Below, piece by piece: positions 1-41,974 of a stretch of 41,974 nt of DNA. A program made the position numbers and the translations under genes. This DNA comes from Escherichia coli (GTDB lineage Bacteria; Pseudomonadota; Gammaproteobacteria; Enterobacterales; Enterobacteriaceae): assembly GCA_026712335.1 (NCBI GenBank), contig GCA_026712335.1_4695.1. One strand, written 5' to 3'. Numbering within the stretch: position 1 is the first letter of the stretch; the number at the start of each line of letters is the position of its first letter. Below the pieces are notes generated by a model that searched no databases, was not told the origin of the DNA, and saw only the letters and a list, made by a program, of their open reading frames with translations.

Positions 1-1
1 C

Positions 2-271
2 GTCAATAAGAATGCTGGGTGGGCTGAGGTCTGGAAAGGCTCTGCTGGTGGTGGTGTCTCGGTAGGTCTCTCACAGGATGTTCGTTGGAGAACCATCTGG
101 ATTCAGACCAATGGTCGCTGGAACGCCGTTCCTATTGGTGGCAATGCGGCTTACTTCATCTCGTCTGATGGTGGTTGGTTGAAGTTCACAATCTCCAACA
201 ACGGCAGAACTTTCCGTAACGACAAAGACGACCGTTCAGTCCCTACGCGAATCTTAGTTCAAAACCAATAA
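2..271 (+). CDS. 17: Tail fiber protein gp17, 3' fragment (overlap copy of 41511..41780, differs at 2 codons)
   Basis: Near-identical to the end of ORF 39855..41780; C-terminus resembles the T7 gp17 tip (KGSAGGGVSV...); stop TAA 269..271. Confidence 0.8.
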   Translation, partial: VNKNAGWAEVWKGSAGGGVSVGLSQDVRWRTIWIQTNGRWNAVPIGGNAAYFISSDGGWLKFTISNNGRTFRNDKDDRSVPTRILVQNQ

Positions 272-565
272 GGACAACATATAGACCACGGATGGTCTCA
301 ACAATAAGGAGGACACAATGTTGTCTTTAGATTTTAACANTCGCTGGAACGCCGTTCCTATTGGTGACAATGCGGCTTACTTCATCTCGTCTGCTGGTGG
401 TTGGTTGAAGTTCACAATCTCCAACAACGGCAGAACTTTCCGTAACGACAAAGACGACCGTTCAGTCCCTACGCGAATCTTAGTTCAAAACCAATAAGGA
501 CAACATATAGACCACGGATGGTCTCAACAATAAGGAGGACACAATGTTGTCTTTAGATTTTAACA
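115..565. repeat. Direct duplicate 115..339 = 341..565 with single N at 340 (scaffold overlap, probable artifact)
   Basis: Read directly: the two ~225 bp copies differ only at the two tail-fiber SNP positions; N at junction. Confidence 0.9.
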
Positions 566-750
566 ACGAGGTAGTGAAGGCTGCACCGATTGTAGGGACA
601 GGCGTAGCCGATGGTGCTGCCCGTCTGTTCTTCGGCCTGTCACTCAACGAGTGGTTCTATGTAGCCGCAATTGCCTACACAGTGGCTCAAATTGGTGCCA
701 AGGTAGTCGATGTGATTATCAAATGGAAGAAGGAGGGCAAAGATGTCTAA
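544..750 (+). CDS. 17.5: Type II holin gp17.5
   Basis: 68 aa, closely matches T7 gp17.5 (MLSLDFNNE...FGLSLNEWFYVAAIAYTV...); one TM segment; RBS AGGAGG upstream. Confidence 0.93.
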   Translation: MLSLDFNNEVVKAAPIVGTGVADGAARLFFGLSLNEWFYVAAIAYTVAQIGAKVVDVIIKWKKEGKDV

Positions 751-4589: not shown

Positions 4590-5060
4590 CAACTCTAAGA
4601 GTAACCCTTATGTACCCTCTATGGTCTACAGGGTCTCTTAGGGTCTCTCACGTAGTCTCACCTTATGATATAGCCTCTGTGGTTAACCTTATGAGACTTG
4701 ATGTACCCCTTTAAGAATCCTACAGAAAAATCTGAGTGAGTATCTCATAGTTCATAAACACCGAGTCCCCCCCCCTATGGCCTCCTTCAGTCCACCCAAA
4801 GAGCCTTCCTCTATGGTAACTCATGGTTTACCTGAAGTCAATCCTTTTGTGAGACATTGGGTTAACTCTAGGTGTAACCACTAGATATTGTGCTTAGTGA
4901 TACCTTATGACCACTATATGTAGTCCTCTCTGTGTCCCTATCTGTAAGTGACCCTAGAGTTATCACCTTATGTCACCTCCTTATGTCTATCCTTATGGCT
5001 GCCTATCCTTATGTTAACCTTCAGTCAGTGCCTTATGTTTATCAGTGACCAATAGGCTTC
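4590..5060. repeat. Terminal-region array of CCTTATG heptamers (at least 8 copies), analogous to the CCTAAAG array at T7 ends
   Basis: Read directly: ACCTTATGA, CACCTTATG, TCCTTATG (x3), GCCTTATG etc.; noncoding; contains a T7 left-end-like motif TCTCATAG at 4743. Confidence 0.7.
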
Positions 5061-5443
5061 GTCACAAAGGGAAATCACTATCTCACTCTGTTTAGCAGTC
5101 CCTGNCCCCCCCCCTATGGCCTCCTTCAGTCCACCCAAAGAGCCTTCCTCTATGGTAACTCATGGTTTACCTGAAGTCAATCCTTTTGTGAGACATTGGG
5201 TTAACTCTAGGTGTAACCACTAGATATGGTGCTTAGTGATACCTTATGACCACTATATGTAGTCCTCTCTGTGTCCCTATCTGTAAGTGACCCTAGAGTT
5301 ATCACCTTATGTCACCTCCTTATGTCTATCCTTATGGCTGCCTATCCTTATGTTAACCTTCAGTCAGTGCCTTATGTTTATCAGTGACCAATAGGCTTCG
5401 TCACAAAGGGAAATCACTATCTCACTCTGTTTAGCAGTCCCTG
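4767..5443. repeat. Direct duplicate 4767..5104 = 5106..5443 with N at 5105, beginning at a C9 homopolymer (scaffold overlap or doubled terminal repeat)
   Basis: Read directly; copies differ by one SNP (T at 4889 vs G at 5228). Confidence 0.85.
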
Positions 5444-5814: not shown

Positions 5815-6267
5815 AACAACTGGTCGCCCTCTGAAACAACATGAGGTGTCACGGTGAGAAACAAAAGTAGTTGACAAGTAGCAACAACAAGATGTAAGAT
5901 GTACGACATAACGTTCTTGTGAAGTCCTACACTGAAAGGGACTCGGTGCTAACAAACCTGCACTTAAAGCTCTTTAACAATTTGGTGACAATAGCACTCT
6001 TGAGATGGCGGCACTAGCGATTAACTCAAGGTGACTCGAANAACAACTGGTCGCCCTCTGAAACAACATGAGGTGTCACGGTGAGAAACAAAAGTAGTTG
6101 ACAAGTAGCAACAACAAGATGTAAGATGTACGACATAACGTTCTTGTGAAGTCCTACACTGAAAGGGACTCGGTGCTAACAAACCTGCACTTAAAGCTCT
6201 TTAACAATTTGGTGACAATAGCACTCTTGAGATGGCGGCACTAGCGATTAACTCAAGGTGACTCGAA
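5815..6267. repeat. Direct duplicate 5815..6040 = 6042..6267 with N at 6041 (scaffold overlap)
   Basis: Read directly; duplicates the A3-like promoter. Confidence 0.9.
5871..5900 (+). promoter_or_regulatory. Putative host sigma70 early promoter (A3-like; duplicate copy at 6098..6127)
   Basis: -35 TTGACA, 18-nt spacer, -10 TAAGAT. Confidence 0.65.
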
Positions 6268-8491: not shown

Positions 8492-11354
8492 ATGACTAAC
8501 GTAATCAACGCACCAAAGAACGACTTCTCTGACATCGCTAACGCAATCATGCCATACAACATTCTGGCTGACCATTACGGCGCACAGCTTGCAGCTACGC
8601 AGTTACAGCTTGAGCACGAAGCGCACACCGAAGGCGAGAAGCGTTTTCTTAAGGCAATGGAACGTCAAATCAAAGCGGGTGAGTTCGGTGATAACGCAGT
8701 GGCTAAACCGCTCCTGTCATCTCTCGCACCGAAGTTTATCGAGGCGTGGAACGATTGGTTCACTGAAGTGGAAGCGAAGCGTGGCAAGCGTCCAGTAGCC
8801 TACAATCTGGTACAGAAGGTTGCACCTGAAGCTGCTGCATTTATCACACTGAAGGTCACACTCGCTTGCTTGACGAAAGAAGAGTTCACCAACCTGCAAT
8901 CGGTCGCCACTAAGATTGGTCGCAGTATTGAGGATGAACTGCGTTTTGGTCGCATCCGTGACGAAGAAGCGAAGCACTTTAAGAACCACGTACAGGAGGC
9001 ACTGAACAAGCGCGTTGGTATCGTCTACAAGAAAGCATTCATGCAAGCTGTAGAAGGCAAGATGCTTGATGCTGGTCAACTGCAAACCAAGTGGACCACA
9101 TGGACACCTGAAGAATCAATTCACGTTGGTGTGCGCATGTTGGAACTGCTCATTGGGTCTACTGGTCTCGTTGAGTTACACCGCCCGTTCGCTGGGAACA
9201 TCGAGAAGGATGGCGAGTACATCCAACTGACCGAACAATACGTTGACCTGTTATCTAAACGTGCTGGTGCACTGGCTGCAATCGCTCCAATGTATCAGCC
9301 TTGCGTGGTCCCACCTAAGCCTTGGACTTCTCCGGTCGGTGGTGGCTATTGGGCTGCTGGTCGCAAGCCTCTCTCTCTGGTTCGCACTGGTAGCAAGAAG
9401 GGACTTGAGCGTTACAACGATGTGTACATGCCTGAAGTTTACAAGGCCGTGAACATCGCACAGAATACTCCTTGGAAGATTAACAAGAAGGTTCTGGCAG
9501 TGGTCAACGAGATTGTGAACTGGAAGCATTGCCCGGTTGAAGATGTACCCGCTCTGGAACGTGGAGAACTCCCGGTCAAACCTGATGACATCGACACGAA
9601 CGAAGCGGCTCTGAAAGCGTGGAAGAAAGCGGCCTCCGCAATCTACCGCAAAGAGAAGGCACGAGTGTCACGCCGCATGAGCATGGAGTTCATGTTAGGT
9701 CAGGCCAATAAGTTCGCACAGTTCAAAGCTATCTGGTTCCCAATGAACATGGACTGGCGCGGTCGTGTGTATGNGAGAACTCCCGGTCAAACCTGATGAC
9801 ATCGACACGAACGAAGCGGCTCTGAAAGCGTGGAAGAAAGCGGCCTCCGCAATCTACCGCAAAGAGAAGGCACGAGTGTCACGCCGCATGAGCATGGAGT
9901 TCATGTTAGGTCAGGCCAATAAGTTCGCACAGTTCAAAGCTATCTGGTTCCCAATGAACATGGACTGGCGCGGTCGTGTGTATGCTGTGCCGATGTTTAA
10001 CCCGCAAGGCAACGACATGACCAAAGGCTTGCTGACGTTGGCTAAAGGTAAACCAATCGGTGTCGATGGGTACTACTGGCTGAAGATTCACGGTGCTAAC
10101 ACTGCTGGCGTGGACAAGGTGGACTTTGCAGAACGCATCAAGTTCATTGATGACAACCATGAGAACATCATGAGCGTTGCGGCTGACCCGATTGCTAACA
10201 CTTGGTGGGCCGAGCAAGATTCTCCGTTCTGCTTCCTCGCGTTCTGCTTCGAGTATGCAGGTGTGCAACACCACGGGATGAACTACAACTGCTCTCTTCC
10301 GCTGGCGTTCGATGGTAGCTGCTCCGGTATTCAGCACTTCTCCGCGATGCTCCGTGATGAGATTGGTGGTCGTGCGGTTAACCTGCTGCCAAGCAAAGAG
10401 GTACAAGACATCTACCGCATCGTAGCGGAACGTGTCAACGAGATTCTGAAGCAAGATGTAATAAATGGCACCGACAACGAAGTCGAAACCGTGACCAATA
10501 AGGACACAGGGGAAATCACTGAGAAGCTCAAGCTGGGCACGAAGGAACTGGCTGGTCAATGGTTAGCATACGGTGTTACTCGTAAGGAGACTAAGCGTTC
10601 CGTTATGACCTTGGCGTATGGTTCCAAAGAGTATGGCTTCCGTGACCAAGTGCTAGAGGATACAATTCAGCCAGCTATCGACGATGGCAAGGGCTTGATG
10701 TTCACTCAACCGAACCAAGCGGCTGGCTACATGGCTAAACTGATTTGGAACGCGGTAACGGTGACAGTGGTCGCTGCGGTTGAAGCAATGAACTGGCTGA
10801 AGTCTGCTGCTAAACTGCTGGCTGCTGAAGTCAAGGACAAGAAGACAAAAGAGGTTCTGCGCAAACGCTGTGCGGTACATTGGGTTACTCCTGATGGCTT
10901 CCCGGTCTGGCAGGAATACAAGAAGCCAGTACAGACACGCTTGAACCTGATGTTCTTAGGCCAGATTCGTCTACAGCCTACCGTGAACACCAACAAGGAT
11001 AGCGGAATTGATGCTCGTAAGCAGGAGTCAGGCATCGCACCTAACTTTGTCCACTCAATGGATGGTAGCCACCTGCGCATGACTGTGGTCCGCTCCAATG
11101 AGGTCTACGGTGTGGAATCGTTCGCACTGATTCACGACTCCTTTGGTACTATCCCTGCTGATGCTGGCAACCTGTTTAAAGCAGTGCGTGAAACGATGGT
11201 CAACACTTACGAAGAGAACGATGTACTTGCAGACTTCTATGAGCAATTTGCTGACCAGTTGCACGAATCACAGCTTGACAAGATGCCTGAGATGCCAGCT
11301 AAAGGTTCTCTGGACCTGCAAGAAATCCTTAAGTCAGACTTTGCGTTTGCCTAA
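8492..11354 (+). CDS. 1: Single-subunit DNA-dependent RNA polymerase gp1 (ORF split by duplication artifact 9564..9984; true length about 883 aa)
   Basis: ORFs 8492..9796 and 9765..11354 together are collinear with T7/T3 RNAP (PCVVPPKPW, WFPMNMDWRGRVYAV, ALIHDSFGT, C-terminal SDFAFA); removing one 211-bp copy restores frame. Confidence 0.97.
9564..9984. repeat. Direct duplicate 9564..9773 = 9775..9984 with N at 9774 inside the RNAP gene (scaffold overlap artifact)
   Basis: Read directly; copies identical; period 211 is not a multiple of 3. Confidence 0.92.
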
Positions 11355-32830: not shown

Positions 32831-35110
32831 ATGAGTAAGTTAGCTCAAGCATTGGGTAGCATGAATGCTCCGACTACCAGTCGTCTGCGTGGCACTGGTC
32901 GTATGGAAGTTAAGGCCGCAGCAGTCTATGAAGACCCTAAGTATGCCAAGAAGTCCGCACTGATTGGGACTGTGGGTAAACTTGCTGAGATGGGTGCGGA
33001 TGCCTATATGAAGTATGACCAGCACCAGAAGGACAAGGCAGACGAACGCTCAAACGAGATTATTCGTAAGCTGACTCCTGAACAACGCCGAGAGGCCATT
33101 AAGAATGGAACCCTGTTATATCAGGACGACCCATACGCAATGGAAGCACTTAAGGTGAAGACTGGTCGTAACGCTGCGTATCTCGTTGATGACGAGGTAG
33201 CACAGAAGGTTAAGAACGGTGAGTTCCGAACCCGTCAAGAGATGGAAGAGTTTCGTCATAGTCGCCTACAGGAATCCGCTAAGAATTATGCTGAACAGTT
33301 TGGTATCGACGAGACCGATGAGCACTACCAGAAGGGATTCAACTCTGACATCACCGAGCGTAACATTGCTCTCTATGGCGCTCATGATAACTTCCTGAGT
33401 GACCAAGCTAAGAAGGGTGCTGTCATCAACAGTCGCGTAGAGTTGAACTCCGTGTTGAACGACCCGGAAACCCTGCGCTCTCCGCATGCTGGTGAGTTCT
33501 TTGAGAACTACTTCAGTGCCGGATTGACTACAGGAAGTATCCCTAGTGATGACCAAGCGTTCACAATGATTAGCCAAGGTCTCTCTGACGTGGTTAACCG
33601 TGAGGGCGGTGGTCAGTTCCTGCAACAGATTGAGAACCGAAAGGTAAAACTGCATGGCAAGGAGACTACCTTCAAGGAACTGATGGGTGCCGAACAGTGG
33701 AACAATCTGATGGTTAAGGCTCAACATAATGAGTTCCAGTTGAATGCTAAGAAGACCGAGGCGTTCCAACTTAATGTGAACTCTGCGTTGAACCAAGAGA
33801 ACGTGAACACTGGCTGGGAACAGTTGCAATCCATAAAAGCTGAACTGGACACACTGCAACCGGGCGAAGAGATGACACCTGAACGTCAGGCGTTAATCAA
33901 TGCACAGACGCAGATGCAGGACAGGATGAAGCTGGAGACCGCTGAGTTAGCCAAGCAGATGGACAAGCAACAGAAGTCGATGAACAAGATGAACGTCATT
34001 GACGCACAGTTCCAGAAGCGGCTCAATGGTCAGTATGTGTCTACTGCGTATGGCGATATGCCTACCAACGAGAACACTGGTGAGTTCACCCATAGTGACA
34101 TGGTTAACTATGCGAACAAGAAGCTGGCTGACATTGACGCTATGGACATCCCTGATGCACAGAAGGACCGCATGAAGTTGGACTACCTCAAGGCTGACTC
34201 CGAGAAGGGCGCTTTCCGTACTGCGGTTGGTGAACTGATTGGTGACGCTGAGAAGGAATGGACGTCCGCTGTGATTAACGGGAAGATGCCAGAAGATGGT
34301 GGTGTGGCTCTTAATGCCCTGCGACGTGTTCGTAATGCTGACCCTGAGTTATTCGCTGCACTCTATCCTGATAAAGCCGAGATGTTCCTCACTATGGACA
34401 TGATGGACAACCAAGGGATTGACCCGCAGATTCTCTTAGATGCGGATAAGGCTCGTAAGTCTCTTACCAAAGAGATGCAGTACGAGGATGACAAGGCGTG
34501 GACTTCCCTGAAGAACAACTCCGAGTCTCCTGAACTGTCCCGTATGCCAGCTACATTGGATGCAGGTGCTCGTAAGATTTATGACTCCGTTAAGTACCGC
34601 ACAGGTAATGCTGATTCGGCAATGCAACAGGTCGATAAGTATCTCAAAGAGAACACAACGACTCTCACTGCTGATGACGTTGATGGTGATACCATTGGTG
34701 TCTTGACGAGAAACTCTTTGCGTGTGACTGATGACCCGGACTCTTGGAAACAAGGTAAGGACATTATCGACACAGCCGCTAAGAAACTCGCTGAGACTAA
34801 CCCTTGGGTTACTAACAAGCAACTCACTGTGTTCGAGCGTGGTGACTCTATCTACCTGATGGACACGACCGGACAGGTAAACATTCGGTATGACAAGCAG
34901 TTGCTCTCTAAGATGTATCAAGAGAACCAAGCGAAGCTGGATGAGGAAGCCCGTAATAAGGCACTCAAAGATGCCAACAAGCGAACCCTACATACACGAG
35001 CTATGAACCGCAAGCGTGAACGTGAAGCTAAGAAGCCTAAGCGCTCTGGCAGCATGTACGATAGCGTGAGTGGCAAAGGTATTCTGGATACGCTGACTGG
35101 TAAAGACTAA
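32831..35110 (+). CDS. 15: Internal virion protein C gp15
   Basis: 759 aa; position between gp14 and gp16; size close to T7 gp15 (747 aa). Confidence 0.9.
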   Translation: MSKLAQALGSMNAPTTSRLRGTGRMEVKAAAVYEDPKYAKKSALIGTVGKLAEMGADAYMKYDQHQKDKADERSNEIIRKLTPEQRREAIKNGTLLYQDDPYAMEALKVKTGRNAAYLVDDEVAQKVKNGEFRTRQEMEEFRHSRLQESAKNYAEQFGIDETDEHYQKGFNSDITERNIALYGAHDNFLSDQAKKGAVINSRVELNSVLNDPETLRSPHAGEFFENYFSAGLTTGSIPSDDQAFTMISQGLSDVVNREGGGQFLQQIENRKVKLHGKETTFKELMGAEQWNNLMVKAQHNEFQLNAKKTEAFQLNVNSALNQENVNTGWEQLQSIKAELDTLQPGEEMTPERQALINAQTQMQDRMKLETAELAKQMDKQQKSMNKMNVIDAQFQKRLNGQYVSTAYGDMPTNENTGEFTHSDMVNYANKKLADIDAMDIPDAQKDRMKLDYLKADSEKGAFRTAVGELIGDAEKEWTSAVINGKMPEDGGVALNALRRVRNADPELFAALYPDKAEMFLTMDMMDNQGIDPQILLDADKARKSLTKEMQYEDDKAWTSLKNNSESPELSRMPATLDAGARKIYDSVKYRTGNADSAMQQVDKYLKENTTTLTADDVDGDTIGVLTRNSLRVTDDPDSWKQGKDIIDTAAKKLAETNPWVTNKQLTVFERGDSIYLMDTTGQVNIRYDKQLLSKMYQENQAKLDEEARNKALKDANKRTLHTRAMNRKREREAKKPKRSGSMYDSVSGKGILDTLTGKD

Positions 35111-35133: not shown

Positions 35134-38100
35134 GTGGATAAGTATAACCCGAACGAATCGCATGAATATGATGCGTTATTTCAACAAGCTGCTGACACAC
35201 ATGGAGTCTCCTATGGCCTTCTTCGGAAGGTCGGTTGGGTAGAGTCCCGCTTTAAACCTACGGCTCAATCACCAACAGGGCCACGAGGTGTCATGCAGTT
35301 CACTAAGGCAACTGGTCAGGCTTATGGTCTCCAGAACGATGAGGACTTCGCTGACCCGGCTAAGTCCATTGATGCTGGTGCTCGTTACCTTGCAGACCTC
35401 GTTAAGAAATACAATGGGGATGAACTTAAAGCTGCCCTAGCGTACAACCAAGGTGAAGGGAGCAACGGTAAGCCACAACTGGAAGCCTACGATTCTGGTA
35501 ACTTTGCTGGCATCGGTGATGAAGGTCGTAACTATCTGCGTTCACTTCTGGATGTCGCTAAGTCACCTAAGAGTGGGGACATCGAGTCATTCGGTGGTAT
35601 CACCCCAAAGGGTAAAGGGATTCCGTTTGATGCTGCGATGAGTGGTATCGGGAAGAAAGGAAAGGTAACAACTGAACTCCCTGAGTCTCACGAAATGTCC
35701 TTTCAAGGTAAAGAACAGGCCGCTCCCAATCAGCCGTTCGGAAAAGATTATTGGGAAGCCAAAGGTACAACTCTTGACGAAGCAAACGAGCGTTCAACCT
35801 TCTTCGGATTCGGTAGTGCTGCTGAAGCAGAACTCTCAAACTCAACCTTGGGTGTTGCCTTCCGTGCTGGTAAGCGTGACAATGGTTTTGATGTGCTCAC
35901 TGATGTACTTCAACCGACACGGTTTAACAGCCACATTTGGTCGCCTGAAGAACTCGATAAGATTCGCAAAGAAGTGAAGAACCCTGCGTACATGAACGTT
36001 GTGCTTGGTGGTTCCGCTGAGAACCTTGACGAGCTAATCAAGATGGCTAATGAGAACTTCGAGTTGGACTCTAAGGCTGCTGATGCGGGTCTAGGTGCCA
36101 AGCTGTCTGCTGGTCTTATTGGTGCTGGTGTTGACCCGTTGACCTACGTTCCTATCGCTGGGACTGCGGCTAAAGGGTTCAAGCTGGTTAACAAGGCGTT
36201 GATTGTAGGTGCTCAAGCTGGTGCACTTAACGTTGCCTCTGAAGGTCTGCGTACATCGGTTGCTGGTGGTGATGCACATTATGCTGAAGCTGCCCTTGCT
36301 GGGATGTTACTGGCTGGTGGACTGACTTCTGTGGCAGATGGCGTTGCTGCGGGTCTCCGTAAGTCTGGTGCTGAACAGATTGAGAACCCCTTTGCTGCTG
36401 CACAGATGCGCTTTGAGACTCGTGAGACTGCACGTAACACTGGTGGTTATGACGCAAGCCGTATGCCTCCTAGTGAAGACCGAGTGTTCTCACAGCACAA
36501 CGGCGTTGAGTATGCACCACTGGAAACTGAACCGGGTGCTGTAGTGTTGCGTGATGGTTCCATTATCAGTGACACAAACTTGGCTAACCCGATGACAGCC
36601 AAAGAGTTCGAAGAAGTAGACCCTGAACGTGCTGCGTGGGGCTTGCCTATGCGTGGATTGAGTGAAATCGGCTTGAGGACTTTACGTTCTGAACATGCTG
36701 AAATCCGTGGTCTCGCTAAGGACTTAGTGCGTTCACCTACAGGTATGGAGTCAGGCTCACATGGTAAGTTTGGTTCCACTACATCGGACATCATAGAGCG
36801 ACTGCGCAGTCTCAATCATCGAACCTACAATAACCTATATGGTGCAATGAAGGAAGCGATGGCTGACCCTGAGTGGTCTGTTGGTATGTTCAAGAGTGGT
36901 GCTCAAGGTGCCCGTCAACAAATCTATCGTCGTACTAGTGAGGCTATCGAGAGACCTGAACTTCAGGCCAACTTGACCAAGGCAGAACGTAAGGTGATGG
37001 ACATCGTGAAGGAACACTATGACCTCAAGCGTGAGATGATGGAGAACCCGTCGATGTTCGGTAACAAGGCCACCTCTATCTTCCCTAACAGTCGTCACAA
37101 AGGGACTTACGTTCCTCATGTGTACTCACGGGAAGCCAAGCAGTTGTACTCACAGGCTCTTGGGGGCACTGATGGTTTACAGGAAGCAGTTGCTGCAAGC
37201 CTGATGGCATCATATCATGCACGCCCTGAAGTTAAGGCCCGTATTGATGAGATGCTGGCAGAGCAGTTACGGGTATCCAAACCAGCGGGTAAGACTGCGG
37301 GTACTACACCCAATAAGCCCTCTTCTGTCAACACAGCAAGTTACCAGATGAAACTGGACGATACAGCTACACAGGCAAGTGATAAGGTATTGGAACTAAA
37401 AGACGTCATGACCAACGCTGAGAAGCGAGTTGCGGACCGTGAAAGGAAACTCCAGAACTCCAAGGACAGACTGGCTTCGCATGAGGCTAAACTGAAGGAG
37501 TTGGAAGAAAAACTAGCTGCTAAACCTAATAGCAAAACCATTCCTGTTAAGATTGAGAGCCGGAAGCAGATGATTGAGACCCAGAAGTCTCACATCCGTA
37601 TTAACACAGAGCGTCTCGACTACATGAAAGGACAGGCTGCTAAGGTCCAAGACAGAATCACCAAAGCAACCGCCGAAGCTGAGGAAGCCGCCTCTGCTGC
37701 CAAAGGGCAGAAGACTACTGGTGGCGGTGAAGACACTATCGTTGGTGAAGCCACATCGGGTAATGCACCTCAATCAGTACAAGAGGTGACTATGGATATG
37801 GTCGAGAAGTACGCTATGGACAAGGCTTACGGTATTACGAAGACCGATGAGTTCAACTCTTCAAGTGTCATTGACGATAACATTGAGGGTCTCGTTGGGA
37901 TTGAGAACAACTCATTCCTTGAAGCCCGTAACCTGTTTGATTCTGACGTGCCAATCACTCTACCGAACGGGCAACAGTTCTCTGTGAATGACCTCCGTGA
38001 CTTCGATATGAAGCATGTGATGCCAGCATATGACCGCCGTGTTGATGGTGATATTGCTATCATGGGAGGCACAGGTAAGACTACTGCTGAACTCAAGGAC

Positions 38101-39782
38101 GCTATTATGGCTCTTGATAAGAAGTCTGAAGGTAAAGGTACAATGAAAGGTGAAGTGGAAGCACTTAAGGATGTCGTTAAGATTGNGTGAATGACCTCCG
38201 TGACTTCGATATGAAGCATGTGATGCCAGCATATGACCGCCGTGTTGATGGTGATATTGCTATCATGGGAGGCACAGGTAAGACTACTGCTGAACTCAAG
38301 GACGCTATTATGGCTCTTGATAAGAAGTCTGAAGGTAAAGGTACAATGAAAGGTGAAGTGGAAGCACTTAAGGATGTCGTTAAGATTGTCACTGGTCGTG
38401 CTCGACGCAATCAGGATACTGTAGGTGACACTATGGTCCGTGCTCTGTCCGATATGTCCTTCTTCACGAAGAACGCATATATGGGCTTGCAGAACCTAAC
38501 CGAAATCTCCGGTATGTTGCAGAAGGGTAATATCCGTGCGATGCTTCATGGCATTCCGGTACTGCGTGACTTAGCGTTCCGCAACAAGCCAGTCTCTGGT
38601 AGTGAACTCAAAGAACTCCACTCTATGGTGTTCGGTAAAGAGTTTGATGACTTAGTCCGACCTACTCGTCAAGACATCATTCAGCGACTCCGTGAGTCCA
38701 CTGATACACCTGATGTTGCCGCAAAGGTTGTTGGTTCTATCAAGCACACAACTCAAGAACTGGCGGCTCGCTCACCTCTCACCAAGTTCCTCAATGGTAC
38801 GTCAAACTACCTTCTGGACATGGCCCGACAGGGTGTGATGGGTGATGTGGTAACTCATGCTATCACTGGAAAGGGTGCCAACAAGTGGATTAAAGGTGAC
38901 ATGTTGAAGTCTGCGAGTATCTCTAAGGAACAGTGGGAAGGCATTCAGGCTCTCATCCGTGAGAACGTTACCCGTGGGGAAGATGGTAAGTTTACCTTCA
39001 AGGATAAGAAGGCTCTGGCTAATGACCCTCGTGCTATGGACTTGTGGCGTTTGGCTGACAAGGTTGCTGATGAAACGATGCTTCGACCTCATAAGGTTTC
39101 CTTACAGGATTCCCATGCGTTTGGTGCCACCGCTAAGTTAGTCCTTCAGTTTAAGTCGTTTGTCATCAAGTCGATGAACTCTAAGTTTATCCGCTCCGGT
39201 CACGAAGCCTTTAAGAACCAGCGTGCTATGGACATGGCGCTGACCTATGCAATCTCTGGTGGTATCGCTGGCTCCTACTATGTGGCACAGGCCCACTTGA
39301 AGGCTGCTGGTCTTCCTAAAGAGCAACAGAAGGATTACTTGAAGAAAGCTCTCGACCCGAAGATGATTGCCTACGCTGCGGCCTCCCGAAGTTCACACTT
39401 AGGGTCGCCTCTGAGTATCGCTAACTTCGCTATGGGTGCTGCTGGTTACGACCAAGGTCTTATGGTTCGCTCTACGATTCTACCGAAAGGTGATGACAAG
39501 CGTGAGCGCAACAAGGCGGTGACTTCTCGTGACATGGGTGATTCCATTATGGGCGCTATTGGTGAACAGGTTCCTGCTCTTGGCTTCGCTGGTGCTGCTC
39601 TAGCTACTGGTCGAAATGCTTATGGTGTCCTTACGGCTCCTAACAAACCGACCGAGCGTGAGATGATGACTGGCTTAATGAATGCTCACCGAGAGATGAT
39701 TCCTAACGATCCAATCTCTCAACAGATGCTCATTAAGTTCTATGAGGCCAACGGTGTTCACATTAAGGCTGACAAGAAGTAA
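35134..39782 (+). CDS. 16: Internal virion protein D gp16 with N-terminal lytic transglycosylase domain (ORF split by duplication artifact 37984..38388; about 1481 aa after de-duplication; GTG start)
   Basis: ORFs 35134..38190 and 38187..39782 together are collinear with T7 gp16; SLT motifs ESRF...MQFTKAT...AYNQGEG; C-terminus YEANGV; removing one 203-bp copy restores frame. Confidence 0.95.
37984..38388. repeat. Direct duplicate 37984..38185 = 38187..38388 with N at 38186 inside gp16 (scaffold overlap artifact)
   Basis: Read directly; copies identical; period 203 is not a multiple of 3. Confidence 0.92.
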
Positions 39783-39854: not shown

Positions 39855-41780
39855 ATGGCTAACAAAATTTCCACTGTACGTACTTACCCGCTGAACGGTG
39901 CCGTGAACTTCACGATTACCTTTGAGTATTTAGCACGTAAGTTCGTCCAAGTGACACTCATCGGGAAAGACCGTAAAGAGTTGGTTCTCAATCAGGACTA
40001 TCGCTTTACCACTAAGACCCAAATCACAACCTCCCGTGCGTGGACTGCTGCCGATGGTTATCAGATGATTGAGATTCGTCGATTCACTTCTGCAACCGAC
40101 CGTCTGGTTGACTTTGCTGATGGCTCAATCCTTCGTGCGTATGACCTTAACATCTCACAGATTCAGACGCTGCACGTAGCTGAAGAGGCACGAGACCTAA
40201 CTGCGGATACCATTGGTGTCAACAATGATGGTCACTTGGATGCCCGTGGTCGTAAGATTGTGAACCTAGCGTTCGCTACCAGTGACTACGATGCTGTCCC
40301 TCTGAAGCAAGTAAAAGAGCGCGAGTCGTCTGCTTGGAACGCTGTTAACAAGGCCAATGAACACGCTAACCGCTCTAACACTGAGGCTAACCGATCGCGA
40401 GATGAAGCTGACCGTGCAAAACGTGAAGCTGACCGCTCAACCCAACAGGCAGGTGTCTCTACGGCACAGGCGGTTGAGTCCAAGAAGCAAGCTGACCGTT
40501 CCAACTCTGAGGCTAACCGAGCTAAAGGTTATGCTGATAGTATGACCGCAAGTGTAGCTGAGGCCAAGAAGCAAGCTGACCGTTCTAACTCTGAGGCCAA
40601 TCGTGCCCGTGATGAGGCCAATCGTGCTGCCGGAGAAGTGACTAAGGCTGCTGCTGAGGTTGCCAAAGCCGCTGCACACGTTGCTACCGCTGATGGACAT
40701 GCTGACAGAGCCAACACTGAGGCAAACCGCTCCAAGAGTGAAGCTGACCGTGCAAAGACCGAGGCTGACAAGTTAGGGAATATGAATAACTTAGCGGGAA
40801 CCATTAAAGCGGTTAATGGTGAGAACGTTGTTTTTAAGAATGATGTTGTAGCACCCGGACAGATTACTGGTGAAAAGGAAGTAAGGGCTGGCGCAGGTCA
40901 ATCGTTTAGCGTGTTAACAAGGAACTCGTTGCAGCTTGTGAACCAGAACTTCGCTGATAGAAATATGAGGTTCTTCGTATGGGGGAATGACCAAGGACGT
41001 GCAAACGTATTTGAGTTAGGTGGTAGCGGTAATGGGTACTATATGTATATCCAGAAGGCTAACCTTAACGACACATTTTGCCAGATGCGAGTGAATGGAC
41101 ATATGGAGGCTGCTGGTGGGCTTACGGTTGGACAATCAGGTGACTTCACTGGAATCTTACAGACTCGCTCACAGAACCTGCTGATGATTAACTCTGCTCG
41201 TCGACATATTCAAATGAAAACCAGCGATAACTACACCGATGGTTATCTTTACAAAGACCCCGGCGCTGGGGCGTGGAGGCTTAACTTTGGTCAGGCAGCT
41301 AACAGGGAGTATACGTTTGATTCAAATGGTACATTAACATCCAACTCAGGCTGGTACATTCCACCAGATGGTAACTTATACATCACGAAGTATGATTCTT
41401 ACATCGACGGTTGGGTCAACAAACGCCTTGGAGAACATGCCTACAATAAAAGCGAAGTAAACAACCTAGTCAATGGACGGTTAACTCAAGCGCAAGCTGA
41501 TGGTCGATACGTCAATAAGAATGCTGGGTGGGCTGAGGTCTGGAAAGGCTCTGCTGGTGGTGGTGTCTCGGTAGGTCTCTCACAGGATGTTCGTTGGAGA
41601 ACCATCTGGATTCAGACCAATGGTCGCTGGAACGCCGTTCCTATTGGTGACAATGCGGCTTACTTCATCTCGTCTGCTGGTGGTTGGTTGAAGTTCACAA
41701 TCTCCAACAACGGCAGAACTTTCCGTAACGACAAAGACGACCGTTCAGTCCCTACGCGAATCTTAGTTCAAAACCAATAA
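39855..41780 (+). CDS. 17: Tail fiber protein gp17 (641 aa, with expanded central repeat region)
   Basis: N-terminal domain FEYLARKFV.VTLIG.DRK...DGSILRAYDLN..QIQT.HVAEEARDLT.DTIGVNNDGHLDARGR.IVNLA and C-terminal tip match T7 gp17. Confidence 0.96.
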   Translation: MANKISTVRTYPLNGAVNFTITFEYLARKFVQVTLIGKDRKELVLNQDYRFTTKTQITTSRAWTAADGYQMIEIRRFTSATDRLVDFADGSILRAYDLNISQIQTLHVAEEARDLTADTIGVNNDGHLDARGRKIVNLAFATSDYDAVPLKQVKERESSAWNAVNKANEHANRSNTEANRSRDEADRAKREADRSTQQAGVSTAQAVESKKQADRSNSEANRAKGYADSMTASVAEAKKQADRSNSEANRARDEANRAAGEVTKAAAEVAKAAAHVATADGHADRANTEANRSKSEADRAKTEADKLGNMNNLAGTIKAVNGENVVFKNDVVAPGQITGEKEVRAGAGQSFSVLTRNSLQLVNQNFADRNMRFFVWGNDQGRANVFELGGSGNGYYMYIQKANLNDTFCQMRVNGHMEAAGGLTVGQSGDFTGILQTRSQNLLMINSARRHIQMKTSDNYTDGYLYKDPGAGAWRLNFGQAANREYTFDSNGTLTSNSGWYIPPDGNLYITKYDSYIDGWVNKRLGEHAYNKSEVNNLVNGRLTQAQADGRYVNKNAGWAEVWKGSAGGGVSVGLSQDVRWRTIWIQTNGRWNAVPIGDNAAYFISSAGGWLKFTISNNGRTFRNDKDDRSVPTRILVQNQ

Positions 41781-41826
41781 GGACAACATATAGACCACGG
41801 ATGGTCTCAACAATAAGGAGGACACA

Positions 41827-41974
41827 ATGTTGTCTTTAGATTTTAACAACGAGGTAGTGAAGGCTGCACCGATTGTAGGGACAGGCGTAGCCGATGGTGC
41901 TGCCCGTCTGTTCTTCGGCCTGTCACTCAACGAGTGGTTCTATGTAGCCGCAATTGCCTACACAGTGGCTCAAA
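41827..41974 (+). CDS. 17.5: Holin gp17.5, 5' fragment (wrap-around copy of 544..691)
   Basis: Identical to the start of ORF 544..750; window ends inside the gene. Confidence 0.85.
   Translation, partial: MLSLDFNNEVVKAAPIVGTGVADGAARLFFGLSLNEWFYVAAIAYTVAQ

What the first reader, a model, noticed from the sequence alone, without database searches (positions are those of the whole stretch)
37270..37780. About 170-aa coiled-coil-rich insertion in internal virion protein gp16
After removing the duplication artifact, gp16 is about 1481 aa versus 1318 aa recalled for T7. The flanks align with T7 (KAR.DEML before; EVT.DMVEKYAMDKAYGI after), but the segment between them (RVSKPAGKTAGT...RKLQNSKDRLASHEAKLKELEEKLAAK...AEAEEAASAAKGQ) has no T7 counterpart and is heptad-like and charged. 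gp16 forms part of the DNA ejection channel, so an extra coiled-coil module could change channel length or host envelope compatibility.
Basis: partly seen in the sequence, partly recalled or inferred. Interest (0 to 1): 0.6.

Follow-up and report, generated by a model that had tools for sequence, protein, structure and literature searches.

The report
Mobile coiled-coil arm in gp16
The DNA-injection protein gp16 of this T7-like phage really does carry an extra 170-residue module, predicted to be a long two-helix arm on flexible tethers. The module has recently been swapped, in frame and at one fixed site, between distantly related T7-like phages, and in other phages the same site holds an acetyltransferase-like domain instead.

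Summary
Once a 203-nt assembly duplication at 38186-38388 is removed, gp16 is 1481 aa. It is collinear with T7 gp16 (1318 aa) except for 170 aa (aa 711-880, nt 37264-37773) that replace T7 Leu716-His717.

AlphaFold2 predicts two helices (aa 734-796 and 803-861, pLDDT 90-98) joined by a short basic loop and tethered by low-confidence (pLDDT below 50), presumably flexible, linkers. The closest folds are generic antiparallel two-helix coiled coils.

It is not a misassembly: 16 independent phage genomes carry it.

It is a horizontally moving cassette:
- It occurs in only 20 of 1268 gp16-bearing phage records.
- It is scattered among close relatives in several Studiervirinae lineages.
- Its synonymous divergence between lineages is 0.05-0.4, against 1.4 to saturation in the flanking gp16.
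- It is under purifying selection (median dN/dS 0.11), and the tip-proximal part is the most conserved.

Crossovers fall in the conserved KARIDE and DKAYGI blocks. The same site carries a GNAT-like cassette in other phages, and both cassettes in tandem in Shigella phage A7.

The site lies in gp16-C, which published models place in the cytoplasm, 20-45 residues upstream of residues where DNA-clamp and Druantia III escape mutations map. The function is only inferred: probably a protein-binding accessory arm delivered at DNA entry.

The parts
35134..38185 (+). gp16 (internal virion / ejection protein D), first part of the CDS, aa 1-1017
   Evidence: ORF list. phmmer to T7 gp16 with E=0. SLT domain PF01464 at aa 15-120. 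phrog_342 end to end.
38186..38388 (.). Assembly artefact: an 'n' plus the second copy of an exact 202-nt duplication, to be removed to restore gp16
   Evidence: The restored protein is gapless against PZJ0206 gp16.
38389..39782 (+). gp16, second part of the CDS (aa 1018-1481 plus stop)
37246..37830 (+). Imported mosaic tract: the cassette plus short co-converted arms
   Evidence: Sliding nt identity: 90-100% to Teseptimavirus JacobBurckhardt/NC-A only inside this tract, and 93-100% to the backbone relative D226 only outside it. Junctions read base by base.
37231..37263 (+). Left conserved block (aa 700-710, EVKARIDEMLAE). The left crossover lies at about 37240-37252.
   Evidence: codon alignment of the junction.
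37264..37332 (+). N-terminal tether (aa 711-733, QLRVSKPAGKTAGTTPNKPSSVN). P/S/T/K-rich and predicted disordered. This is the 'type-1' linker allele.
   Evidence: pLDDT below 50. Composition. Two linker alleles seen in the alignments.
37333..37521 (+). Helix 1 of the hairpin (aa 734-796)
   Evidence: AF2 helix at model residues 30-92, pLDDT 90-98. Heptad score.
37522..37539 (+). Tip loop (aa 797-802, PNSKTI) inside a Lys/Arg-rich tip (AAKPNSKTIPVKIESRK)
   Evidence: Near-invariant across 12 variants.
37540..37716 (+). Helix 2 of the hairpin (aa 803-861)
   Evidence: AF2 helix at model residues 99-157. Foldseek superposes the model on antiparallel two-helix coiled coils at rmsd 2.2-3 A over 124-138 columns.
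37717..37773 (+). C-terminal tether (aa 862-880, G/T-rich), predicted disordered
37774..37836 (+). Right conserved block (aa 881-901, SVQEVTMDMVEKYAMDKAYGI). It was co-transferred with the cassette. The right crossover lies at about 37815-37836.
   Evidence: The window matches JacobB/NC-A up to GGTATT and matches D226 after it.
37831..37905 (+). Conserved motif directly downstream (aa 900-924), containing G900/I917/G922/E924 = T7 G737/I754/G759/E761
   Evidence: Residue mapping. T7 clamp mutations G737D/I754T/E761K (PMC8954989). T3 Druantia III escape mutations I754N/G759D (bioRxiv 10.64898/2026.05.12.724681).

Best explanation
The segment is a real, self-contained, in-frame accessory cassette in the ejection protein gp16 of a Berlinvirus.

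Structure (predicted): it encodes a long antiparallel two-helix coiled-coil arm of about 9 nm (my estimate from about 60 residues per helix). The arm has a Lys/Arg-rich tip and hangs on two tethers of about 20 residues. These tethers are modelled at low confidence and are presumably flexible. The cassette replaces a two-residue turn (T7 L716-H717) between two helices of the gp16-C domain.

How it arrived (shown by sequence comparison): it was acquired by homologous recombination through the conserved blocks on either side (KARIDE... and ...MVEKYAMDKAYGI). It belongs to a small pool of cassettes that T7-like phages exchange at this one hot spot. The other known member is a GNAT-like domain, and the two can be stacked.

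Function (inferred):
- gp16-C is modelled as the cytoplasmic hub of the ejectosome, so the arm would be delivered into the host cytoplasm at the moment of DNA entry, before any phage gene is expressed.
- The arm is under purifying selection, most strongly on its tip-proximal two-thirds including solvent-facing positions.
- I therefore infer that it is a binding arm (for a protein, or possibly DNA or membrane) that modifies early events at the entry site.
- The most likely role is evading or blocking a host factor or defence that acts on or senses gp16-C. An alternative is tuning the neighbouring DNA-clamp motif.
For: Identity and boundaries:
- T7 gp16 1-715 aligns to window 1-710 and 718-1316 to 881-1479.
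- The de-duplicated protein is gapless against PZJ0206 gp16.

Fold:
- The insert-only AF2 model has helices 734-796 and 803-861 at pLDDT 90-98, with the tethers below 50.
- The same helices appear in the 607-aa context model.
- The best Foldseek superpositions are antiparallel two-helix coiled coils: YscO, p85 iSH2, colicin E3/E9, SMC arm.

Rarity and gain:
- The cassette is in 20 of 1268 gp16-bearing phage records.
- In an evenly spaced sample of 60 of those records, 57 have no insertion at the site.

Horizontal spread:
- Hairpin dS between the window and the other sampled lineages (two Teseptimavirus-annotated backbone groups, the Klebsiella group, the Kayfunavirus ST31/CY1 pair) is 0.06-0.39. 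Flanking gp16 dS is 1.4 to saturation.
- Amino-acid identity is 87-93% in the hairpin against 52-72% in the flanks.
- Nucleotide identity steps up and down at about 37246 and 37830.
- The states none / hairpin / GNAT / both are interleaved among close relatives on the backbone tree.

Selection:
- Median dN/dS is 0.11 over 69 pairs.
- The distal 71 residues have 21% variable columns against 62% at the base, Fisher p=4e-6.

Hot spot:
- A GNAT-like cassette (PF00583, 23.6 bits against a cut-off of 20.7) sits at the same site in pO103, PP74 and FOPMU1 (site verified in these three), matches gp16 in about ten further records, and stands in tandem with the hairpin in A7.

Packaging: the 1644-aa A7 gp16 was found in virions by mass spectrometry at 72.9% coverage (PMC8427288).

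Topology and neighbourhood:
- gp16-C 411-1118 is modelled as cytoplasmic (PMC8954989).
- Clamp mutations map to G737/I754/E761 and Druantia III escape mutations to I754/G759. These residues are aa 900-924 in the window.
Against: No function was tested, and no binding partner is known.

The hairpin has no detectable homologue with a known role. Searches that found nothing informative:
- exhaustive phmmer over 1.84 billion representatives, which returned only a fragment of the same cassette plus coiled-coil noise;
- a PDB profile search;
- the PDB and BFVD fold searches.

The cytoplasmic placement of gp16-C is a published model based on low-resolution density, not a solved structure.

I could not read the 7EYB coordinates, so I cannot confirm that T7 716/717 is solvent-exposed. 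The context AF2 model is poor (pLDDT 49.6).

Much of the sequence invariance among Berlinvirus and Teseptimavirus copies reflects how recent the spread is, not constraint. The selection argument rests mainly on the more divergent Kayfunavirus-type copies (Bas105, Kc166A).

The antiparallel packing is predicted, not observed.
Confidence: 0.6

Rival explanations
1. The arm has a structural or regulatory role inside gp16 itself. It tunes the adjacent DNA-clamp/ratchet motif (T7 G737-E761), and so the rate or extent of transcription-independent DNA entry. Alternatively it acts inside the capsid as an extra strut of the gp16 ring contacting packaged DNA.
For: - The insertion is 20 residues upstream of G900 (= T7 G737), and the right crossover includes that residue.
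- Clamp mutations map there (PMC8954989).
- The tip and N-tether are net basic, which would suit DNA contact.
- gp16-C binds DNA in vitro (PMC8954989).
Against: - About 97% of gp16s work without it, including 95-96% identical siblings.
- The same site accepts an unrelated GNAT-fold domain. That fits a display site better than a tuned mechanical element.
- The long flexible tethers decouple the arm from the host domain.
Confidence: 0.2
2. The cassette is a near-neutral passenger. A permissive loop tolerates junk-like helical sequence, which spreads only by hitch-hiking in the frequent recombination among co-infecting T7-like phages.
For: - No homologue, motif or known function.
- It is rare, at 1.6% of records.
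- T7-like phages are known mosaics. PMC11680406 describes exchange of gp15-gp17.
Against: - Median dN/dS is 0.11, with surface positions in the distal arm invariant even at dS of about 1.
- The imported tract is trimmed tightly to the cassette in several independent lineages, rather than being part of longer exchanged blocks.
- No frameshifted or decayed copies were seen among the 14 gp16 genes translated here.
Confidence: 0.12
3. One reading: the extra coiled coil lengthens or adapts the trans-envelope DNA channel to a different host envelope.
For: gp16 is an ejectosome component. Long helical hairpins do build periplasmic tubes in other systems (my general knowledge of membrane-fusion proteins). 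The topology of gp16-C is not solved at high resolution.
Against: - The periplasmic tube is gp15 plus gp16 residues 1-228. The insertion is at residue 711 in the domain modelled as cytoplasmic.
- Carriers infect E. coli, Shigella, Enterobacter, Klebsiella, Kosakonia and Yersinia, as do their cassette-less siblings.
- A GNAT domain at the same site makes no sense as channel wall.
Confidence: 0.05
4. An assembly or annotation artefact, such as a chimeric contig or an intein-like element that is removed from the mature protein.
For: The window does contain six junction artefacts: each 'n' lies between exact 202-300-nt duplicates.
Against: - The cassette is 200 nt or more from the nearest junction.
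- It is 99-100% identical in the independently sequenced PZJ0206 and is present in frame in 15 other phages.
- There are no Hint, intein or nuclease domains.
- The A7 protein is detected at full size (179.5 kDa, 72.9% peptide coverage; PMC8427288).
Confidence: 0.01

Closest known systems
T7 gp16 (internal virion protein D, the lytic-transglycosylase ejection protein; PDB 7EYB, 7K5C, 6YT5, 9JYY; phrog_342)
   Same: Collinear over the whole length (E=0). It has an N-terminal SLT domain, the same gene order (gp15-gp16-gp17), and the conserved clamp-motif residues G737/I754/G759/E761.
   Different: T7 and T3 have a two-residue turn (L716-H717) where this protein has a 170-aa tethered helical hairpin. 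About 97% of gp16 homologues in the phage collection resemble T7 at this site.
GNAT-like cassette at the same gp16 site (pO103, PP74 and vB_Kpn_FOPMU1 checked here; ESh9, EcpYZU01 and others match by tblastn; in tandem with the hairpin in Shigella phage A7)
   Same: - It sits at the same insertion point between KAR(V/I)DE.L and EKYAMDKAYGI.
- It has the same tethered, in-frame architecture.
- Its cross-lineage distribution is equally sporadic.
- It shares linker alleles ('type-2 frame', ENFLR junction motif) with some hairpin copies.
   Different: The cargo is unrelated: an alpha/beta acetyltransferase-like fold (PF00583 above cut-off) rather than a coiled coil. The window phage does not carry it.
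Domain shuffling among podophage ejection proteins (for example lysozyme activity on the gp15 homologue gp35 of K1E/K1-5 rather than on gp16), reviewed in PMC8954989
   Same: Accessory modules are added to or moved between ejection proteins. These proteins are 'mosaically conserved'.
   Different: Those cases, as I understand them, are whole-domain differences between distant phages. Here a discrete internal cassette is present or absent between 95%-identical phages, with defined crossover points and evidence of recent inter-genus transfer.
Generic antiparallel two-helix coiled-coil arms (type III secretion YscO, PI3K p85 iSH2, colicin E3/E9 receptor-binding hairpin, SMC arm)
   Same: The predicted fold superposes at rmsd 2.2-3 A over 124-138 columns. 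Several of these are binding or spacer arms.
   Different: There is no sequence relationship (8-17% identity) and no significant Foldseek E-value. The resemblance is of fold class only and carries no functional inference.
Virion-packaged, co-injected effectors (for example T4 IPI*, P1 DarA/DarB, N4 virion RNA polymerase), cited from my general knowledge and not tested here
   Same: The concept is the same: a protein function delivered with the DNA, acting before phage gene expression.
   Different: Those are separate proteins or giant enzymes. Here the putative effector is an internal module of the ejectosome protein itself, and its activity is unproven.

Membership tests
[quoted passage not shown] | End-to-end collinearity with T7 gp16 | tested here: met
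   phmmer E=0. Window 1-710 and 881-1479 align to T7 1-715 and 718-1316. phrog_342 covers window aa 1-1481 (profile positions 4-1234 of 1235).
[quoted passage not shown] | N-terminal SLT lytic transglycosylase domain with the catalytic Glu | tested here: met
   PF01464 E=1.2e-25 at aa 15-120. The ESRF motif Glu aligns with the Glu of T7 WTESRF, which I take to be the catalytic residue.
[quoted passage not shown] | Gene lies between the gp15 and gp17 homologues | tested here: met
   A 759-aa ORF lies upstream at 32831-35110 and a 641-aa ORF downstream at 39855-41780. The same order is annotated in PZJ0206, BA14 and T7.
[quoted passage not shown] | Packaged in the virion and ejected | not testable with these tools
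   This is shown only for a relative: the 1644-aa gp16 of A7, which carries the hairpin and GNAT cassettes, was identified in purified virions by MS (PMC8427288).
Antiparallel two-helix coiled coil (helical hairpin) | Two long helices with heptad-type hydrophobic periodicity | tested here: met
   AF2 helices of 63 and 59 residues at pLDDT 90-98. The home-made heptad a/d occupancy score peaks at 0.9-0.95.
Antiparallel two-helix coiled coil (helical hairpin) | The helices pack against each other antiparallel | tested here: met
   Prediction only. The model superposes on solved antiparallel coiled coils at rmsd 2.2-3 A over 124-138 columns. There is no experimental structure.
Intein or homing-endonuclease type in-frame mobile element | Hint/splicing motifs or a nuclease domain; removed from the mature protein | tested here: not met
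   No Hint, LAGLIDADG, HNH or GIY-YIG match even at E<=10. The A7 protein is detected at full length.
   The insertion is at the T7 716/717 position, inside gp16-C 411-1118 (PMC8954989).
Horizontally exchanged gene cassette (mosaic module) | Divergence within the module is far below that of its flanks between lineages, with sharp boundaries and a patchy distribution | tested here: met
   dS is 0.05-0.4 within the module against 1.4 to saturation in the flanks. Boundaries lie at about 37246 and 37830. Carrier and non-carrier states are interleaved on the backbone tree. The module is in 20 of 1268 records.
GNAT acetyltransferase cassette of gp16 | Acetyltransf_1-type domain present in the insertion | tested here: not met
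   The window insertion has only weak coiled-coil matches in Pfam. The GNAT module is found in A7, pO103, PP74 and FOPMU1, not in the window.

The most novel reading that the evidence does not exclude
The turn at T7 gp16 716/717 is a payload-display site. T7-like phages use the cytoplasm-facing hub of their ejectosome to carry swappable effector modules: a conserved binding arm, a GNAT-type acetyltransferase, or both. These modules are injected with the first DNA and act before any phage gene is expressed, for example by masking the gp16-C surface that Druantia III-type sensors respond to, or by neutralising or modifying a host factor at the entry site. On this reading the cassettes spread between genera because they are adaptive counter-defence cargo.
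Probability: 0.3. Interest if true: 0.8.

Novelty: new variant of a known kind. Interest (0 to 1): 0.6.

Why it matters
gp16-C is the least understood part of the T7 ejectosome. It is invisible in the high-resolution post-ejection structures, yet genetics ties it to control of DNA entry and, recently, to sensing by a defence system.

A natural, discrete polymorphism exists 20 residues from those residues. It has three alternative states beyond 'empty': hairpin, GNAT, and both. This gives near-isogenic natural phages, and exact coordinates for engineering T7, with which to ask two questions. What does the cytoplasmic hub do? Can ejection proteins deliver effector cargo?

It also marks a permissive site in gp16 for engineering payloads into therapeutic T7-like phages.

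For annotation, it explains why some 'internal virion protein D' genes are 1460-1640 codons long rather than about 1315.

Tried and rejected
**Searches for homologues of the hairpin**
- Pfam and PHROGs on the insert gave only sub-threshold coiled-coil noise.
- The word-indexed 5.8-billion-protein search returned one fragment of the same cassette, P0001, filed as a Klebsiella 'hypothetical protein'.
- Exhaustive phmmer on 1.84 billion representatives gave P0001 plus one repetitive coiled-coil protein that I regard as noise.
- The scans of IMG/VR (window hairpin core as query) and of GTDB species genomes and JGI metagenomes (profile of 12 hairpin variants) either re-found reference phages or found nothing. 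These scans are pattern-seeded and can miss divergent copies.
- A PDB profile search gave nothing meaningful.
- Foldseek against PDB and BFVD gave no significant match.
- tblastn against the window itself found no paralogue, so the insert is not an internal duplication.

**Structure in context**
- AF2 of the 607-aa context with a 6-sequence alignment was too poor (pLDDT 49.6) to say where the arm projects from gp16-C.
- The large protein databases hold few T7-like gp16s, so I could not build a deep alignment.

**Papers**
- I could not obtain three papers: the T7 core structure paper (PMC8449382), Swanson et al. 2021 (PMC8349896) and Chang et al. 2010 (PMC2825023).
- Exposure of residues 716/717 in 7EYB and the exact limits of the 127-codon clamp-mutation stretch therefore remain unchecked.

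**Other checks**
- There is no sigma-70-like promoter, terminator or Rfam family in 36900-38100.
- The GC content of the cassette (0.47-0.49) does not stand out from its flanks.
- Literature searches found no description of this insertion. The A7 paper lists the 1644-aa protein without comment.

**Readings considered and rejected**
- Intein: no motifs, and the full-length protein is detected in virions.
- Ancestral segment lost in T7: it is rare, its dS is far below that of the flanks, and its distribution is interleaved.
- Misassembly: it is present in independent genomes.
Full report
**1. What is in the sequence**

The window is the genome of a T7-like phage of the genus Berlinvirus. Over 24 kb it is 96.4% identical to Enterobacter phage PZJ0206 and 95.3% to coliphage 285P.

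Gene 16 appears as two ORFs, 35134-38190 and 38187-39782. An exact 202-nt tandem duplication (37984-38185 = 38187-38388) surrounds an 'n' at 38186. All six 'n' characters in the window sit between such exact duplicates, so these are contig-joining artefacts.

Removing 38186-38388 gives a single 1481-aa protein. It aligns without a gap, at 96.3% identity, to the annotated 1481-aa gp16 of PZJ0206.

**2.

- phmmer against all PDB chains aligns T7 gp16 (1318 aa) residues 1-715 with window residues 1-710, and 718-1316 with 881-1479.
- The extra piece is aa 711-880, nt 37264-37773. It is 170 residues long and replaces T7 Leu716-His717.
- The rest of the protein is a normal gp16. It has an SLT domain at aa 15-120, matches phrog_342 end to end, and lies between the gp15 and gp17 homologues.

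**3. Anatomy of the insert**

| Part | Residues | Character |
|---|---|---|
| N tether | 711-733 | 23 residues, P/S/T/K-rich, pLDDT below 50 |
| Helix 1 | 734-796 | pLDDT 90-98 |
| Tip loop | 797-802 (PNSKTI) | inside a Lys/Arg-rich tip |
| Helix 2 | 803-861 | pLDDT 90-98 |
| C tether | 862-880 | 19 residues, G/T-rich, pLDDT below 50 |

- These values come from composition analysis and the insert-only AlphaFold2 model.
- The same two helices appear in a larger but otherwise poor context model. There the insert sits between helix 698-713 and helix 882-903.
- Foldseek finds no significant relative. The model superposes at 2.2-3 A over 124-138 columns on solved antiparallel two-helix coiled coils (YscO, p85 iSH2, colicin E3/E9 hairpin, SMC arm). 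BFVD gave nothing better.
- The object is therefore a helical hairpin of about 9 nm (my estimate from helix length), with both ends together, hung on flexible tethers. That is the classic topology of a domain inserted into a surface turn.
- There is no intein, nuclease or other Pfam or PHROG domain. There is no promoter-like, terminator-like or Rfam element. There is no paralogue in the genome.

**4. It is real, rare and mobile**

*Distribution.* tblastn finds the hairpin in only 20 of 50,697 phage records, which is 16 phages plus RefSeq duplicates. It is always inside gp16, and no weaker hits appear even at E<=5. A query of the joined flanks finds a gp16 homologue in 1268 records. In an evenly spaced sample of 60, 57 have no insertion: their span is 456-480 nt.

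*Carriers* fall in at least four backbone groups:
- Berlinvirus: the window, PZJ0206, Carena, P483, A7.
- Teseptimavirus: JacobBurckhardt, NC-A, and vB_Yep_9, which has a very divergent backbone.
- Kayfunavirus: ST31, CY1, Kc166A, plus Bas105, whose record carries no genus but which groups with them on the backbone tree (ZH4 and PH1061 also carry the hairpin by tblastn, but their loci were not examined).
- A Klebsiella phage group: phi1_146025, phi1_146017.

On a tree of the gp16 backbone, carriers and non-carriers are interleaved. For example D226 (no cassette) is next to the window, and T7 (no cassette) lies between JacobBurckhardt and NC-A.

*Divergence.* Nei-Gojobori synonymous divergence of the hairpin core between the window and the other groups is:

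| Compared with | Hairpin dS |
|---|---|
| JacobBurckhardt, NC-A | 0.06-0.13 |
| vB_Yep_9 | 0.29 |
| Klebsiella group | 0.33-0.37 |
| ST31, CY1 | 0.27-0.39 |

The flanking parts of the same gene are at 1.4 to saturation. Amino-acid identity is 87-93% in the hairpin against 52-72% in the flanks.

Only within the Kayfunavirus-type clade does hairpin divergence track backbone divergence, with dS up to about 1.3. This suggests that the cassette has resided longest there.

*Boundaries.* Sliding nucleotide identity and the codon alignment place the imported tract at about 37246-37830. Inside it the window matches Teseptimavirus carriers at 90-100%. Outside it the window matches its Berlinvirus sibling D226. 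The crossovers lie in two blocks conserved in all gp16s:
- left: ...AAGGCCCGTATTGATGAG (KARIDE);
- right: GAGAAGTACGCTATGGACAAGGCTTACGGTATT (EKYAMDKAYGI).

Transfer by homologous recombination during co-infection is the simplest mechanism. This is an inference.

**5. It is selected**

- Over 69 pairs with 0.2<dS<3, the median dN/dS of the hairpin is 0.11, with a range of 0.06-0.29.
- In an alignment of 12 distinct variants, the tip-proximal 71 residues have 21% variable columns, against 62% at the base. Fisher p=4e-6. Many solvent-facing residues are invariant.
- That pattern fits a specific interaction surface near the tip rather than a mere spacer.
- Caveat: much of the invariance among Berlinvirus and Teseptimavirus copies only reflects recent spread.

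**6. The site is a hot spot with a second kind of cargo**

- The 1644-aa gp16 of Shigella phage A7 carries, after the hairpin, a further module of about 155 aa. It matches Pfam Acetyltransf_1 above the curated cut-off: 23.6 bits against 20.7.
- That GNAT-like module matches 13 further phage records at 67-97% identity, nearly all annotated as gp16. Alignment of three of them (pO103, PP74 and FOPMU1) shows it alone at the same position. The records span Berlinvirus (pO103, PP74), Przondovirus (FOPMU1) and others whose taxonomy I did not check. A distant 32% match in an Acinetobacter phage is set aside.
- Two linker 'frames' exist. The type-2 frame (...ENFLR... / ...PAKPSERQKFGT.EKVEPKVDEE...) carries the GNAT module alone, the hairpin alone (P483, vB_Yep_9), or both in tandem joined by a repeated ENFLR motif (A7).
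- The window has the type-1 frame. A search with the type-2 frame found no third cargo.
- The A7 paper shows the 179.5-kDa protein in virions by SDS-PAGE and MS, with 111 peptides and 72.9% coverage. So such enlarged gp16s are packaged intact (PMC8427288).

**7. Where it sits in the machine**

In the published model, the periplasmic tunnel is gp15 plus gp16 residues 1-228. Residues 243-410 and 1119-1290 are putative membrane segments. gp16-C (411-1118) is fitted into the cytoplasmic toroid seen by cryo-ET, and it binds DNA (PMC8954989; bioRxiv 10.1101/2021.01.04.424714).

The insertion is in the middle of gp16-C. It lies 20-45 residues upstream of G737, I754 and E761, where missense changes allow transcription-independent entry of the whole genome; this is the 'clamp'. 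A 2026 preprint reports T3 escape mutants from Druantia III at gp16 I754N and G759D. [quoted passage not shown] These residues are conserved in the window as G900, I917, G922 and E924. G900 lies at the right-hand crossover.

**8. Interpretation**

*Shown:* a real, in-frame, horizontally exchanged and purifying-selected cassette. It encodes a predicted tethered antiparallel coiled-coil arm, at a hot spot in gp16-C that also takes a GNAT-like domain.

*Inferred:* the arm is presented in the host cytoplasm when the ejectosome forms, and it acts through binding. The most likely role is modifying how the host, or a defence system, sees or acts on gp16-C or the entering DNA.

*Less likely:*
- tuning of the neighbouring clamp, or a role inside the capsid;
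- a neutral passenger, which conflicts with dN/dS of 0.11 and with the tight trimming of the transferred tract;
- a misassembly, which is excluded by the independent genomes.

**9. Novelty**

I found no paper that describes this insertion or the hot spot. My literature access was partial, so this is not proof. Mosaicism of ejection proteins is known in general (PMC8954989; PMC11680406). I therefore rate this as a new variant of a known kind, not a new category.

The value lies in the handle it gives on the poorly understood cytoplasmic hub of the T7 ejectosome, and on the possibility that ejection proteins carry swappable effector cargo.

Noticed in passing
window 340, 1243, 5105, 6041, 9774, 38186 (each an 'n'); repeats 115-640, 1038-1448, 4767-5405, 5815-6267, 9564-9984, 37984-38388; also 41624-41923 = 341-640: Five of the six 'n' sit between two exact tandem copies of 202-226 nt (the one at 5105 within a 300-nt duplicate spaced 339 nt apart). 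The 'n' at 340 sits between a 300-nt block and an 80%-identical copy offset by 226 nt. These look like overlap-joining artefacts that break or inflate genes throughout the assembly. The last ~300 nt repeat the 341-640 block, which suggests terminal repeat or circular-permutation redundancy. The true genome is probably about 40.5 kb, like PZJ0206.
   Followed up: partly
L013 (Shigella phage A7 gp16), L021 (pO103), L022 (PP74), L023 (FOPMU1); equivalent to window ~37264-37773: A second cassette type occupies the same gp16 site in other T7-like phages. It is a module of about 155 aa that matches Pfam GNAT Acetyltransf_1 above the cut-off. It occurs alone in pO103, PP74 and FOPMU1 (checked here) and matches about ten further records by tblastn, and in tandem with the hairpin in A7 (gp16 1644 aa, shown in virions by MS). 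It is a possible injected acetyltransferase. I found no description of it in the literature.
   Followed up: partly
L003 (P483), L014 (vB_Yep_9), L013 (A7), L004 (Carena), L015 (CY1) versus the window 37264-37332 and 37717-37773: The tethers are themselves mosaic. There are two unrelated N-linker alleles and at least two C-linker alleles, combined in different ways with the same hairpin core. A repeated ENFLR(G/S) motif sits at module junctions and could be a recombination joint.
   Followed up: partly
P0001 (176 aa; UniRef 'hypothetical protein', Klebsiella pneumoniae): Outside the phage collection, the only copy of the hairpin in the very large protein databases is a fragment filed under a Klebsiella pneumoniae assembly. 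It has the type-2 C-linker. It is probably phage DNA within a bacterial assembly.
   Followed up: no
window 40351-40769 (inside the gp17 tail-fibre ORF 39855-41780): There are several imperfect direct repeats of 61-77 nt (61-74% identity) at spacings in multiples of 21 and 42 nt. They encode a repetitive Ala/Asn/Arg/Glu-rich stretch in the tail-fibre shaft.
   Followed up: no
window 11363, 11987, 12511, 13980, 14861, 18649, 26292, 27286 (+ strand): A family of eight T7-type phage-RNA-polymerase promoter-like sites (AATACGACTCACTAATGGGAGA). None lies in or next to the cassette.
   Followed up: no
window 37513-37773, minus strand: An 86-codon TTG-started ORF lies antisense to the cassette. The forward frame has dN/dS of 0.11, so the antisense ORF is most likely spurious.
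   Followed up: partly
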